From Rhina ancylostomus (Eukaryota), in contig JARFYF010000074.1 in NCBI GenBank assembly GCA_030265395.1, forward strand, positions 46,553,344 to 46,617,343: 64,000 bases of DNA, in the 5' to 3' direction. Below are positions 52,301-58,300 of the stretch, piece by piece. Position 1 is the stretch's first letter. Each line of letters begins with the position of its first letter. The position numbers are program-made.

Positions 52301-55300
52301 TCCAATCCAGGCAATGTTCCATGAATCTCTTCTGCACCTTCTCCAAAGCCTTCCTATATTGTGGCAACCAAAACTGTAACAGTACCCCAATGTGGCCTAG
52401 ACAAAATTTTATACATCTCCACCATGACTTCTCAACTTTTATACTCAATACCCTGATCAATGAAGGCAAGGATACTGTACACCTTTACTACCCTATCCAA
52501 TTCTGTTGCCACTTTCAGGGAGCTACAGACTTGTGCCCCAAGATCTCTGTGTACATCAGTGTTCCTAAGGGTCCTGTAATTTTACTCAATATTTTCTCTT
52601 TATTTGACTTCCCAAAATGCATCAGCTAGAAGTTAAAGTGAAACCAGCTTTACAGAAAAGGTCCAAAAATGCTGTTTGAAGAACAGAAGAATTTTTTCCA
52701 TTGTCCAAACCAACATTCATCCTTCAAGCAATTTAAAAGAGAAACCTGCTCATTGATGTACTGTACATGAGACCTTGCTGTGTAACAAACAGCACCACAT
52801 AGTCTGACTCTCCTTGAGGCTGCAAAACAGACAGACAGCTGTTTATTGGTAAAAGAATTTTGTTTAAACAGAAATTGTGGAACTAGTACATCCCACCTGT
52901 TCGGCAGTCCCACAACCAGTGGGCAGTCAACCAGCTTTTGGCTCATAAGTATGTAATGGCGATCATGGGTTAGTGCAGTTTGGCTAGTCCAGTCAGCAGG
53001 AAAGGGAGGCATTTGGTGGAGTTGAACTGATTACACCCACCTCAAGTTTGCAAGAGCACAGGAATGCAGGAAATGGGAGAGAAGGGGAAGACTGAGATGG
53101 TTTCAGCTAGACTGCACATATGTACATTCTATTTTTTGGCTGAATAGAATGGCATTGCTTTAGCTTGAACTAACTGAAAGGGGTTTCCTTGAATTTTTTT
53201 GAATGTTTCATCCACTTAAGTAAACCAAAACCTATGAACAATCTAAATTAGATCAGAGTTGCTTGCATTTCACTGTATGGATTTTTGGAACACTGCGATC
53301 TTTTTCATGGAGCTATTGTTGATTATACTTTGACAACAACCTTACAAGGTCTTCCATTTTCTCATAGTCTACTTATTGCTTTATGATTCCAAGCTTTTGC
53401 TCCAATGCCAAGGCAATGGATAGGGTGAGGAGGCTGACAACAACACAGCAAAGATGAAAATGATCCAAAGAGATTTAGCAGCTGGTGGCAATGGGAGAAT
53501 GAGCAAGATGGAAGAAAAAGCATTCCTTGGTTTATTCCACTTCAATGCAAGGGCTGTGGAGTACTTATTATAAAGCATATAATGGCTTCAATAGATATAA
53601 ATTAACTTTAGAAATGGAGAGGAAGTGGACATTCATTTCAAAGGCAGGTAACATCTGGCAATTATCATAATCATTAATTATGGTAATCACCATTTAAAGT
53701 CAGTACTGATAGTAAATACTTATCAANNNNNNNNNNATGGCACAAAATGAAATATACAATTGGAGTTGCATATTTTCATGCATAAAGTAAATCTGACATT
53801 CGCATCTGTGTTCAAAAGAAATAGACACAGCTACCACAGTGCAATGTCCAATTCTGGTATGTGACTTGAAACACCGTTTTAATAACAACTCTTGTATGTC
53901 TCAATTCATTTCTACTGATTAAAACATGATACTGTGGAAGAATGCTTGTAGGAAGAGCATTAAAAACCACCTGAAAGTGATCAAAATATTGGGTTAGGTG
54001 GTACAATAGATGGGTACAACCAGACTAATTGGATAAATACCAATTATAACTATTGGTTTCTGGCCTCTGACCTGGAATCAATTTGAAATGTTTCAACTCA
54101 GTATTGCTGATCAGGTACTAATTAAGTAATTTAAACCCATAGGAGTTACTGATCACAAGTCCAAATATCACACTATACAATCTTCAGAAGGAGCTTGTAC
54201 GAATGTTAGTCTTAAGTGCAGTCAAAATTCTACCCTTCATCTACCTTGAGCCTTTTTTTCACCTGGGAGTGTTTAACACTGACAGTGGGTCTAAAATTCC
54301 CCTTGCATCACAGAATAAAGGGTTTAATGTTCTTATCATAGCACAGGGATGTTAATGGTTTTACTTGAACAGTGCACCATCAATTGTGAGTTCTTGACAT
54401 TATATCCTGAAACCTCCTGGAAATGAAAAACACTACTTGCAGATTGAACCACCAGCAATGATAGTTCTTAAACATTCAATCACATCACAGCACATTTCTT
54501 CTAGAAACTTAGCTCCTGTTGCAAAGCTGAGCTGAAAACCACACTTTTAGTCCATCAGCAGGGTGAACGATTGGCACTAGCAGCATCTTGGGGAATGTCT
54601 TGGTGGCTAGCTTCCAATGACTGACACTGGTCAACTCAATAGCAAGGACTTTCAGGATAAGTTTTGCAAGCTCTTTGCCAAGGCATCGCCTAACACCTCC
54701 ACCAAAAGGCAGATAATGAAAGCGGATGTTCTTGCCTTCCATTTGATCTTTGGCAAATCTATCCGGATCAAATGTTTCAGGGTCCTGGAATATGGGGGCA
54801 GTATAGTGTGTGTCCTGAATACTGTACAACACACTCCATCCTTTGGGGATCTGGAAACCCTGTCAGAGAAACAAAGCATAGCTTGATTACATATTCATTT
54901 CTCTGTCTCTCAGAAACATTGTCAATGTTTACTTTGTCGAATGGAATCTCTTTTACAAGAGAATAACATTTTAAAACTGATTTTTCATATTATGAAATAA
55001 CTTTGAAATAGAAACCCAGAGTTGCCCTGGTGATTGTGTCCTGAAAACCTAGTCTGTTGGTGTTAGGTGGTAGGTCACCAAGGGCTAATTGAGAGTGGCT
55101 TTGGGTGTAATTGTTAAAAGATAGGACAGATCATGATCATGGTCCACAATTTCTTGGCAGTGGTGAGCTACCTGGGATGTCACTCATCTACTAAGTTCAT
55201 TCACTGGTACCAACTTCCTTGCCAAATCTGTCCAGATGCTCACAAGCAGAGTCTTCTGTGTATGGATTCCACCACAAGCCTCACCCATAGTCATATAAAC

Positions 55301-58300
55301 TGAGTCCAGTATAATTCTGTATCAGATTATTTTCCAGCAACTGGAATTGACTCCTACTCTCAGTTACCACAGATAATGGGAAATAATCCCAAGGACAGTG
55401 AATTCTGATAACTACAGACAATTTATTTTAGTGATGGTGATACATTTCTAATGGGGAGAAGTTTTCCTCTCCAGGCTAGAACCAAGAGTACCAGAGGTAC
55501 CAGCCACCCCGCTGCTTGTACTCACTCACCACCCACACATCAGTTCCCACTGTATGAGGGGTGAGGATGGCAAGCAGCTGGTGTTCGCATATTTTTGGTA
55601 ATAGCTATCAAGGTAGAAATTTCTCTCCCTCTCTGCAAACTGGATACATTTTAAGAAGCAGAAAAAATATCCTTTGGGCACCAGATGTAATTAATATCCT
55701 CTTCAGGGCAGCTCACAAACCCCCACACAAATTAATTTCAAGCCCAACCTCGACTGCTGCCTGTGGGAGGTCAGCACATTCTCTTCACAACTATGTGGGT
55801 TTCCTATCGCATCCCAAGAACAAACTGCTAGGTTAATGTAAATTACCTTTTAGTGCATGCAAGGAGCAAAAGAATCAAAGGGGACGTAATAGGTATGAGT
55901 GAGGGAGATTAAATTGTGGGGTTACAGGGACATAAGGAGAGGGGGAGTGGGACTGCTGGGATTGGGAACCAGCGCTGGGATCAGTGTGTCATTGTAAGTA
56001 AAAGATGAGATCTAACAATCTCACTTACTTAATCTCTGCTAAGAAATTATACATGGTTCTAAATGTTATAAATCCTCTTTAAGTCAAGTTATCCTTCAAT
56101 TCCAGCAAGAGCAACAGCGTCAAATATATTTAAGGCACCTTTAATGTGATGAAACATCTTGAGCTTTTCCAAAGAAGCATTAAATCAGTGCAGTCACAGA
56201 AGGACATCAGGAGGAAGGGAAGTTAACCTTAAAACAAACCAACTCACCGCCAGCTCGAAAGTCCGGAGGGCCACTCGATATCCCCCCGACACAGGTGGGA
56301 GCACCCTCAGTACTTCCTTCACCACACAATCCAGGTACTGCAGGTGGGTGATGTCAGCATGGTGTAAGGTGTCCTCCCTGCCGGTGGTTTCAGGCCAGAA
56401 TCCCCTCGTCTGGAGGTCCACTTTCAGCTTGGCAAAGACGGCTGGATTCTTCAGCAGCTGCAGGATGAGGGAGGTGCAGGCACTGGCTGTGGTGGCGTAG
56501 GCAGCGAACATCAGCTCCACTGCTGCTTCCTGCAGTTAAATAGTGATAACTTCACCATCAGAGGGGAACCTCATTTGATATTGTAACAAATTAATGAGAC
56601 TACATTTGTTGTGAGTTAGCAGGGCCTGCCCTTGGTTCTAGCAGGAATGCGGCAGAAGCTTCTGTTTTGAAATGTTTATGTGAGTTAATATCTGATGCCA
56701 GTAGATGTCACTGGACTGTAGAGTTAAGGAGGTGTCTCAGTGACAATCCCATCACTTAATCGGAAACACATCAGAGAAAAGACCAGGTTTCACTGCACTA
56801 TCCACAAGCCAAAGCACAGCTACTGACTTAGAGTCCTCTTCTGAAAATGGCACCTAGGTGTAATAGATGGTGACGGTTGGGTGGGAGTGTCATTCTTCCA
56901 AGGTTGGGTGGAGATTTTCCTCCCGTGTGTTGTCTGTGCTAGTTCTGACCTGGAAGTGTTCGACCCCGTCACTAGGTGGACAGGTTCATTTCCTAGCTCT
57001 GGAAAGCTGACCTGGACAGGATCAAAATGCTTTAAAAAAAATGTGACTATGAACTCTAGCTCACTGGCTGAGTCATCCTTACCTTCAATTCTTGTGTGCT
57101 CATCTTCATCCTGTGTTCTTTGCTGCTCTTTATCAGGATGCCCAGGGCACTAGAGTTTTCTTCGCAGGGACTGGATTGACGTATATTATCTATGGCTTTT
57201 TCAAAGTATAGGTAGAGCTTGTCCCGAGCGCGAATACCCTGGAATAAGGGAGCAAAGTATGACTTTCCTGCCTATATCTTTGTCTTCCTGGATTCTTGAT
57301 ATAGTTATCCTGGCAAGGAACAAGTGATAGACTGTGATTGTATTGAAACATATAAGATTATGAGGGGCATGACAAGGTAGATGTTGAAATGTCTCCATTA
57401 GTGGGAGAATCTCAAACGAGGGGACACAGTTACAAAGTCGGGGAGCAGTCACTTAAGACTGAGGTGAGTAGGAATTTCTCGCAGAGGGTCATGAATCTTG
57501 AATTCTCTACCCTGGAGGGTTGTGAAGGCTGGAGCATTGGGGGTATTTAAAGAGGAAGTAGATAAATTGGTGAAAGGTCAGGGAATTGAGGGTGATGGGG
57601 GACTGGCACAGAAGAAGAGACGAAGCCTGGGGCAGATCAGCTGTGATCATTGTTGAATGACAGGGCAGGCTTGAAGGGCTGAGTGACCTACTGCTGCTCT
57701 TGTTGACTTATGTTCTTCCGTCACATTCAACAGGTACCTTGTTTTCTACAATAAGGTGGCTCTTGTTGTATTTTAGCTTTCTGTCAATGAAGGCTATGTT
57801 GAAGTTTGAACCCAAGTATCACTCTTTAAGCATTCATTGCTGGAATATTAGAGACAGACAGGACTTTAAAAAAAAGGTATAACTTTACAACAGCATTAAA
57901 AGGGGAAAACGAATCATGTGCTTGTCCAGTGATCTTACGACCTCAGGGTGCATAAAGTTGGCTTTTAACTCTGGTCATCTTTGTAATACAGTAACTACAG
58001 GGGTCAAGTTGTGCAAAGAAAGATCTCATAAACAGCAACTTGGCCTGTTTTAGTGATCTGATAGGACAGCAGGAGGCCCATCTCCCCATTCTGCTGATGT
58101 CCTTTGGAATGGTGTCAACAGATCTTTTATCCGAGTTATCAGGCAGGGTATCAGTTTAACTCCAAAAATTCAGTGCCTAGGACAGAGCAAATCTTCCCCA
58201 GTGCTGTGTTAAAGTTGACCTAGTTATTATTCAAATCCCTGAAGAGCAAGTCGAAACCATGATATCCTGACTCTAAAATAACTGTGAACTCCCTCAAAGT

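What the first reader, a model, noticed from the sequence alone, without database searches (positions are those of the whole stretch)
54509..57238. Divergent B/C-clade CYP26 lying tail-to-tail with matrin-3-like: candidate extra CYP26 ohnolog absent from mammals
Seen: three intact exons with canonical splice sites and all P450 catalytic motifs. The I-to-K-helix exon is undivided, as recalled for 6-exon CYP26B1/C1 and unlike 7-exon CYP26A1. The protein is a mosaic: B1-like ([31 protein letters not shown]), C1-like (EAAVEL, VVKEVLR.LPPVSGGYR, VPIVHP) and unique (YSIQDTH, FELAG, short C-tail). Known from human: CYP26C1 is followed by CYP26A1, and 2p13 has ZNF638(+), DYSF(+), CYP26B1(-), ZNF638 being a matrin-3 paralog. 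Here the order is matrin-3-like(+), CYP26(-), with no ferlin or CYP26A1 between them. Inference: this is the paralogous block from vertebrate genome duplication, retaining an additional retinoic-acid-degrading enzyme.
Basis: partly seen in the sequence, partly recalled or inferred. Interest (0 to 1): 0.75.

Follow-up and report, generated by a model that had tools for sequence, protein, structure and literature searches.

The report
Extra retinoic-acid-degrading CYP26 gene, 3' half
The interval holds the last three intact exons of a retinoic-acid-degrading P450 gene (CYP26, B/C type) lying tail to tail with a matrin-3-family gene; it is probably the extra "CYP26B2" copy already reported in cartilaginous fishes, so the gene is real but not new.

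Summary
On the minus strand, 57238-57083, 56529-56248 and 54859-54509 are three open, phase-0 exons. They have AG/GT splice sites, a TAA stop and the P450 I-helix, ExxR, PERF and Cys-heme motifs. Pfam p450 matches two of the three (1.9e-20 and 2.2e-13). The best solved relative is the retinoic-acid-binding CYP120A1 (5.8e-23).

The neighbour, 8.2 kb away and tail to tail, is a two-RRM matrin-3-family gene. The window holds no ferlin, no second P450 and no PAIP2 motif. Exons 1-3 are not in the window.

A fourth, B-like CYP26 ("CYP26B2") is already in print for two cartilaginous fishes, where it is called a lineage-specific duplicate (PMC5247814). The repeats suggest a cartilaginous fish, but this rests on recall and was not tested.

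The ohnolog idea rests on one argument from gene order: CYP26B1's published block also contains a matrin-family gene, ZNF638. No tree and no same-genome search for B1 and C1 could be run.

The parts
57083..57238 (-). CYP26 exon A, probably exon 4 of 6. It has 52 codons, phase 0 at both ends, and encodes GIRARDKL...STQELK.
   Evidence: AG acceptor and GTAAGG donor read. Length and translation checked. No Pfam match and no PDB match, as expected for this poorly conserved stretch. The exon number is recalled from mammalian CYP26B1 and was not tested.
56248..56529 (-). CYP26 exon B, 94 codons. It runs from the I-helix (AAYATT, 56505-56488) through the K-helix ExxR (56316-56305) to the SGGYR motif and ...TFELA, with no intron.
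   Evidence: Sequence read. Pfam p450 at 2.2e-13. PDB matches to CYP46A1 at 1.2e-4 and CYP120A1 at 1.7e-4. GC3 is 0.72, higher than in the other two exons.
54509..54859 (-). CYP26 last exon, 116 codons plus TAA (54511-54509). It carries PERF-type FDPDRF (54772-54755) and the Cys-heme loop [10 protein letters not shown] (54706-54677). Only 8 residues follow ...GLKVWF.
   Evidence: Sequence read. Pfam p450 at 1.9e-20. CYP120A1 (2ve3) at 5.8e-23, aligned over residues 1-107.
57239..64000 (-). Intron upstream of exon A, at least 6.7 kb. It runs off the window, is full of LINE fragments and holds a 100-N run at 59356-59455. Exons 1-3 were not found here.
   Evidence: I read every minus-strand ORF of 25 aa or more and none looks like P450. 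Recalled N-terminal CYP26 motifs gave 0 matches. The N run was left as it is.
53531..54508 (-). Probable 3' UTR. Poly(A)-like hexamers start at 54328 (ATTAAA), 53883 (ATTAAA) and 53536 (AATAAA).
   Evidence: Regex. Which signal is used, if any, is not known.
46348..53530 (.). Spacer between the two convergent genes. The stops are 8.2 kb apart. No further gene was recognised, only LINE fragments.
   Evidence: ORF lists for both strands. A 10-N run lies at 53727-53736.
5909..6952 (+). Matrin-3-like gene, first coding exon. It runs from ATG at 5909 to the first zinc finger (...YLCSLCDLTIHSVQ) and has a GTGAGT donor.
   Evidence: No Pfam family matched. The likeness to matrin-3's N-terminal half is recalled and was not tested.
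31040..31177 (+). Matrin-3-like gene, first half of RRM1.
   Evidence: PDB matches: RBM20 RRM 4.6e-10, Matrin-3 RRM2 5.1e-8, Matrin-3 RRM1 6.4e-7, ZNF638 0.003. Boundaries.
34243..34383 (+). Matrin-3-like gene, first half of RRM2.
   Evidence: PDB matches: Matrin-3 (1x4f/7fbv) 1.7e-13, RBM20 5.7e-11. Boundaries.
25964..46347 (+). Span holding the matrin-3-like coding exons downstream of the first, the two RRM first-half exons listed above included. The others are: about 25964 (YPEWNPD), 27560-27675, up to 31793-31878 (5' end hidden in an N run), 36832-36963, 38932-39346, 41350-41683, 44206-44327 (second zinc finger ...HYQRLK) and 46282-46347 (ends in TGA).
   Evidence: zf-U1 scored 0.0015 (18.7 bits), below the 22-bit cut-off, on the 44.2 kb exon; this was 1 of 8 pieces with any Pfam match. 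The split codon across 41683/44206 is consistent.

Best explanation
The interval is the 3' half (probably exons 4-6 of 6) of an intact, intron-containing CYP26 gene of the B1/C1 type on the minus strand. It converges on a matrin-3-family gene 8.2 kb away.

It is most likely a fourth CYP26 paralog beyond A1, B1 and C1, of the kind already published as 'CYP26B2' in cartilaginous fishes.

Inferred mechanism, from what is established for the CYP26 family:
- It is an ER-anchored heme-thiolate monooxygenase.
- It takes electrons from P450 reductase.
- It hydroxylates all-trans-retinoic acid at C4 or C18, which clears the morphogen and sharpens retinoic-acid boundaries.

Shown here: exon integrity, splice sites, the catalytic motifs, P450 membership, and the neighbour and its orientation.

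Inferred: the substrate, the exon numbering, identity with CYP26B2, the host being a cartilaginous fish, and the age of the duplication.
For: - Three open, phase-0 exons with AG/GT borders and a stop.
- Pfam p450 at 1.9e-20 and 2.2e-13.
- The closest solved structure is CYP120A1, at 5.8e-23 for the last exon; that it binds retinoic acid and is the closest solved relative of CYP26 is recalled.
- One heme loop and one PERF motif in the whole window, so there is no tandem CYP26A1.
- The neighbour is matrin-family by RRM matches and ends in a TGA at 46347, tail to tail with the CYP26 gene.
- The published CYP26B1 synteny set is Znf638, Dysf and Exoc6b, and the A1/C1 set is Myof and Exoc6 (PMC10879103, passages). 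Neither fits this window.
- A B-like extra copy in chondrichthyans is in print (PMC5247814, section 5).
Against: - No vertebrate CYP26 sequence could be compared, so neither the B/C-clade placement nor identity with CYP26B2 was tested.
- Exons 1-3 and the promoter are outside the window. A truncated or silent gene is therefore not excluded.
- The host taxon is only guessed, from recalled CR1-like LINE peptide fragments.
- Papers on catshark, newt, lungfish, coelacanth and zebrafish count three CYP26 genes (passages).
- No DR5 retinoic-acid response element was found in the window: 0 matches, 0.28 expected. This is uninformative because the promoter is missing.
- Exon A matched nothing in Pfam or the PDB.
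Confidence: 0.6

Rival explanations
1. It is a true 2R ohnolog. Under this reading, the ancestral block held a matrin-family gene and a CYP26B/C gene, and it was quadruplicated in early vertebrates. This copy stayed beside the matrin-3-type member, survived in cartilaginous fishes and was lost in bony vertebrates. It overlaps the best explanation and differs only on the age of the duplication.
For: - CYP26B1's published block contains ZNF638.
- ZNF638, MATR3 and RBM20 are stated paralogues (PMC12795506, introduction passage).
- Here a matrin-family gene that is much nearer to Matrin-3 and RBM20 than to ZNF638 (1.7e-13 and 4.6e-10 against 0.003) sits beside a B-like CYP26.
- A small-scale copy landing by chance beside a paralogue of its parent's neighbour is unlikely. 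This step is inference.
- Rodriguez-Mari et al. note that four Cyp26 genes would be expected from the two duplications, while three are found (PMC3769385, passage).
Against: - Only one paralogous gene pair supports the block, and no ferlin or EXOC6-type gene is present.
- The only published tree that includes such a copy reads it as chondrichthyan-specific.
- No phylogeny was run here.
- The chromosome positions of MATR3 and RBM20 are recalled.
Confidence: 0.4
2. It is a cartilaginous-fish-specific duplicate of CYP26B1, as published, that came to lie beside the matrin-like gene secondarily.
For: - The wording in Carvalho et al. 2017.
- The B1-like look of the I-helix and heme-loop motifs, which is recalled.
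Against: - The match in neighbour family with the B1 block would then be coincidence.
[quoted passage not shown] That also fits an older origin.
Confidence: 0.2
3. It is simply this species' ordinary CYP26B1 or CYP26C1 ortholog in a rearranged neighbourhood, and not an extra copy.
For: - No search for other copies in this genome was possible.
- In the catshark, cyp26c1 could not be found in the genome assembly (PMC10492535, passage). The location of C1 in sharks is therefore not secure.
Against: - There is no CYP26A1 downstream.
- There are no DYSF-like or MYOF-like ORFs in the 8 kb spacer or elsewhere.
- By recall, the three exons are more diverged from mammalian B1 than B1 orthologs usually are. 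This was not tested.
Confidence: 0.15
4. It is a truncated or decaying gene remnant (an unprocessed pseudogene) of which only the 3' exons survive.
For: - Exons 1-3 were not seen in 6.7 kb upstream.
- The upstream intron is invaded by LINE fragments.
- No expression data exist here.
Against: - All 262 codons are open, every catalytic motif is kept and the splice sites are canonical.
- A large repeat-rich intron and a 100-N gap are enough to explain why the upstream exons are not in view.
Confidence: 0.05

Closest known systems
CYP26B2 of Callorhinchus milii and Leucoraja erinacea (Carvalho et al. 2017, BMC Evol Biol 17:24, PMC5247814)
   Same: An extra, B-like CYP26 beyond A1, B1 and C1, reported only in cartilaginous fishes, that sits awkwardly at the base of the B1 clade. 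This is the same picture as a 'divergent B/C-clade' gene.
   Different: Identity could not be checked. The paper gives no genomic neighbourhood and calls the copies lineage-specific. This window adds the matrin-family neighbour.
CYP26B1 (vertebrate retinoic acid 4-hydroxylase)
   Same: The I-helix AAYATT and the heme loop [11 protein letters not shown] look B1-like by recall. Both have an undivided I-to-K exon, and B1 has a 6-exon layout (PMC4964396). The matrin-family neighbour parallels ZNF638 in the B1 block.
   Different: There is no DYSF or EXOC6B-type neighbour. The C-terminal tail is short and the exon 4 and 5 sequences are divergent, both by recall.
CYP26C1
   Same: A 6-exon layout. 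The motifs LPPVSGGYR and VPIVHP look C1-like by recall.
   Different: In most jawed vertebrates CYP26C1 lies directly beside CYP26A1. This window has no second P450.
CYP120A1 of Synechocystis (PDB 2ve3/2ve4)
   Same: It is the best solved-structure match to the last exon: 5.8e-23, aligned over 107 residues including the heme loop. By recall it binds retinoic acid.
   Different: It is a soluble bacterial enzyme and only a distant relative. Its match to exon B is weak (1.7e-4).

Membership tests
Cytochrome P450 superfamily (PF00067) | Profile match above the curated cut-off | tested here: met
   Exon C scored 73.6 bits and exon B 50.2 bits, against a cut-off of 22.8. That is 2 of 3 exon ORFs; exon A matched nothing.
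Cytochrome P450 superfamily (PF00067) | Cys-heme loop FxxGxRxCxG, ExxR in the K-helix, a PERF-type motif and the I-helix threonine pair | tested here: met
   [20 protein letters not shown] and AAYATT were read. The acidic residue before TT is replaced by Ala. By recall the same holds for CYP26B1.
Cytochrome P450 superfamily (PF00067) | N-terminal membrane anchor, proline-rich hinge and substrate recognition sites 1-3 | not testable with these tools
   Exons 1-3 lie outside the window.
CYP26 family (P450 nomenclature rule: more than 40% identity to CYP26 members) | Sequence identity to named CYP26 proteins | not testable with these tools
   No CYP26 chain is in the PDB copy. The large protein databases are closed, and the Atlas says only 'P450, Chordata'. 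Indirect support comes from the best solved relative being CYP120A1.
CYP26 B/C clade | A single exon spanning the I-helix to the K-helix, in a 6-exon gene | tested here: met
   Exon B is undivided. The 6-exon counts for human B1 and C1 come from PMC4964396. That A1 splits this particular exon is recalled.
CYP26B1 orthology | Neighbourhood of ZNF638, DYSF and EXOC6B (PMC10879103) | tested here: not met
   The 3' neighbour is a matrin-3-type gene with no ferlin between. The 5' side is outside the window.
CYP26C1 orthology | CYP26A1 directly adjacent, with MYOF and EXOC6 nearby | tested here: not met
   There is only one heme loop and one PERF motif in 64 kb. The 5' side is outside the window.
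Published chondrichthyan CYP26B2 | Orthology by sequence and tree to the C. milii and L. erinacea CYP26B2, with a cartilaginous fish as host | not testable with these tools
   The sequences are in closed supplements. The host taxon is guessed from recalled LINE peptide fragments only.
2R ohnolog | Lies in a paralogous block that shares several gene families with the B1 and C1/A1 blocks | tested here: inconclusive
   Only one shared family is seen, matrin/ZNF638/RBM20. No ferlin or EXOC6 paralogue is in the window.
2R ohnolog | A duplication node older than the split between cartilaginous and bony vertebrates | not tested
   No reference sequences were reachable, and the joined-exon tree was left out.
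Matrin-3/RBM20/ZNF638 family (the neighbour gene) | PTB-type RRMs plus U1/matrin-type zinc fingers | tested here: met
   The RRM exons match Matrin-3 and RBM20 at 1.7e-13 and 4.6e-10. The zinc finger scores only 18.7 bits, below the 22-bit cut-off. The CxxC...H...H pattern is visible.

The most novel reading that the evidence does not exclude
This is the 'missing' fourth CYP26 ohnolog from the early vertebrate genome duplications. It has been kept beside a matrin-3-type gene in cartilaginous fishes and lost in the bony-vertebrate stem. If so, the published label 'chondrichthyan-specific CYP26B1 duplicate' is wrong, and the ancestral jawed vertebrate had four retinoic-acid-degrading enzymes.
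Probability: 0.4. Interest if true: 0.5.

Novelty: already known. Interest (0 to 1): 0.3.

Why it matters
CYP26 enzymes set the retinoic-acid boundaries that pattern the hindbrain, limbs, gonads and skeleton, and models of their evolution assume three genes in jawed vertebrates. A fourth copy in cartilaginous fishes changes the inferred ancestral toolkit. It also bears on hidden paralogy between CYP26B1 and CYP26C1 clades, a worry raised in PMC3769385 and PMC10879103.

The existence of such a copy is already in print. What this window adds is its genomic neighbour. That neighbour gives a concrete, testable argument that the copy is ancient rather than lineage-specific.

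Tried and rejected
- **Upstream exons.** I did not work round it. I read the ORF lists instead and ran a short-motif regex. No exon 1-3 turned up.
- **ESM Atlas on the last exon.** It said only 'cytochrome P450, Chordata' and gave no subfamily information. 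The second Atlas call was not used.
- **PDB.** It holds no CYP26 chain, so it cannot tell B1 from C1.
- **Rfam and tRNA scans.** Both were empty for the whole window. There is therefore no intronic snoRNA to tie the neighbour to MATR3 proper.
- **DR5 retinoic-acid response element.** 0 matches against 0.28 expected.
- **PAIP2 motifs.** 0 matches. These are recalled motifs, so this is weak evidence.
- **Literature searches.**
  - 'cyp26' plus 'matr3': 14 papers. Judged by title and abstract listing only, none concerns synteny.
  - 'matr3l1' and 'matrin-3-like': 1 irrelevant paper.
  - 'cyp26' with 'cartilaginous' and 'ohnolog': 6 papers, none describing a fourth copy judging by the listing.
  - 'Callorhinchus' and 'Leucoraja' with 'cyp26': nothing beyond Carvalho et al..
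  - 'cyp26b2': 4 of the 27 papers hold the term. Only PMC5247814 was read. I took the other three for unrelated uses from their titles.
- **Readings considered and rejected.**
  - A retrocopy: the gene has introns.
  - A lamprey origin: exon GC3 is not uniformly high.
  - A human origin: the sequences are diverged and the repeats are CR1-like. I do not take the window for human.
- **Left out or closed.**
  - Supplements were closed.
  - Genome contigs is prokaryotic and was not used.

Full report
**What is in the sequence**

- 57238-57083: 52 codons.
- 56529-56248: 94 codons.
- 54859-54509: 116 codons plus TAA.

Each is preceded by a pyrimidine-rich tract ending in AG. The first two are followed by GTAAGG and GTGAGT. 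All junctions are phase 0 and there is no internal stop.

The middle exon carries the I-helix AAYATT, the K-helix E-V-L-R and SGGYR in one piece. The last exon carries FDPDRF and the heme loop [10 protein letters not shown].

Pfam p450 matches the last and middle exons at 1.9e-20 and 2.2e-13. The first of the three matches nothing.

Against the sequences of solved structures:
- The last exon is closest to CYP120A1 of Synechocystis, at 5.8e-23 over 107 residues. In all, 113 distinct sequences pass E<=0.001.
- The middle exon gives 3 weak hits.
- The first gives none at E<=1.

**What is missing**

Only the 3' half of the gene is present. I read all minus-strand ORFs of 25 aa or more between 57239 and 64000 and saw nothing P450-like. 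Recalled N-terminal CYP26 motifs gave no match. That stretch is an intron of at least 6.7 kb, full of LINE fragments, with a 100-N run at 59356-59455 that I left untouched. Whether exons 1-3 and a promoter exist is therefore open.

**The neighbour**

The plus strand carries a multi-exon gene. It runs from an ATG at 5909, through a first zinc finger, two RRMs, an acidic and serine-rich region and a second zinc finger (44206-44327), to a last exon ending in TGA at 46347.

Searched exon by exon against the PDB:
- The RRM2 exon is closest to Matrin-3 (1.7e-13), then RBM20 (5.7e-11).
- The RRM1 exon is closest to RBM20 (4.6e-10), then Matrin-3 RRM2 and RRM1. ZNF638 scores only 0.003.

Pfam was nearly silent. 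Only 1 of 8 pieces matched, zf-U1, and that was below its cut-off.

The gene is therefore a member of the matrin-3 family. Whether it is MATR3 proper or a further paralogue is not settled.

The two genes converge, and their stop codons are 8.2 kb apart. The spacer holds only repeat fragments. The whole window has one heme loop and one PERF motif, so there is no tandem CYP26A1. It also has no PAIP2-type motif, no Rfam family and no tRNA.

**Comparison with what is in print**

- Bedois et al. 2024 (PMC10879103, passages) used Znf638, Dysf and Exoc6b as the CYP26B1 synteny set. They used Myof and Exoc6 for CYP26A1/C1, and state that in most jawed vertebrates A1 lies directly beside C1. Neither pattern fits this window.
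- Rodriguez-Mari et al. 2013 (PMC3769385, passages) note that four Cyp26 genes would be expected from the two vertebrate duplications, whereas zebrafish and tetrapods have three.
- Carvalho et al. 2017 is the decisive find (PMC5247814, section 5 read whole and further passages). [quoted passage not shown] An extra B-like CYP26 outside mammals is thus already described.
- Papers on catshark, newt, and lungfish and coelacanth still list three genes (passages).

**Is this window that gene?**

Probably, but I could not show it. The scattered LINE tail fragments resemble, by my recall, elements common in shark and ray genomes. No tool here tests that. The CYP26B2 sequences sit in supplementary files that are closed. 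The large protein databases are closed, and the one genome collection still open is prokaryotic.

**How old is the copy?**

One argument can be made from the window alone. CYP26B1's block contains ZNF638. ZNF638, MATR3 and RBM20 are stated paralogues (PMC12795506, introduction passage). Here a B-like CYP26 sits beside a matrin-family gene that is clearly not a recent ZNF638 copy.

A small-scale duplicate of B1 landing by chance beside a paralogue of B1's own neighbour is unlikely. A block duplication as old as the matrin/ZNF638 split explains it simply.

The argument has limits. It rests on a single gene pair, with no ferlin or EXOC6 paralogue in view. It is an inference and has not been tested. 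My searches found no paper linking CYP26 with MATR3 synteny: one search listed 14 papers, judged by listing only, and searches added nothing.

**Mechanism**

From established CYP26 biology, the product would be an ER-bound heme-thiolate monooxygenase that hydroxylates all-trans-retinoic acid and so limits retinoic-acid signalling. The thiolate cysteine, the ExxR/PERF triad and the I-helix threonines needed for this chemistry are all present. The substrate itself is inferred. No DR5 response element lies in the window, which says little because the promoter is absent.

**Verdict**

The gene fragment is real and well read. The 'extra CYP26' claim is probably right but already published as CYP26B2. 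The ohnolog origin is plausible at about 0.4 and testable. Interest is modest.

Noticed in passing
56248-56529 (-) against 57083-57238 and 54512-54859: The middle CYP26 exon has GC3 of 0.72. Its two neighbours have 0.54 and 0.48, and the surrounding introns are 0.41-0.45 GC. This could mark gene conversion or a local GC-biased process. It might also relate to the 'mosaic' look of the protein.
   Followed up: no
31040-31177 (+) and 34243-34383 (+): The matrin-like gene's RRM1 exon scores better against RBM20's RRM than against Matrin-3's own RRM1, while its RRM2 exon is best against Matrin-3 RRM2. The gene may be a separate matrin-3 paralogue rather than MATR3 proper.
   Followed up: partly
10855-11581 (+), 45017-45259 (+), 52034-52484 (-), 57356-57550 (+), 58424-58770 (-), 62017-62509 (-): Decayed LINE (CR1-like) reverse-transcriptase tail fragments lie on both strands, including inside the CYP26 intron and the spacer. 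By recall they resemble elements common in sharks and rays. They are the only hint of the host taxon.
   Followed up: no
13 N runs, e.g. 14381-15104, 31693-31792, 59356-59455: The N runs range from 4 to 724 bases. One hides the 5' end of a matrin-like RRM1 exon and one lies in the CYP26 upstream intron. All were left as they are.
   Followed up: no
15105-15220 and 17505-17560: Homopolymer-like G/C runs, which translate as poly-Gly or poly-Pro, flank the 724-N gap and recur near 17.5 kb. A (TA)n-type microsatellite lies near 16234-16395.
   Followed up: no
6953-27559 (+): The matrin-like gene has an intron region of about 20 kb after its first coding exon. Only a small exon (YPEWNPD, about 25964) was found in it. 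The reading phase between 6952 and 27560 does not close without at least one more exon, which may be hidden by N runs.
   Followed up: partly
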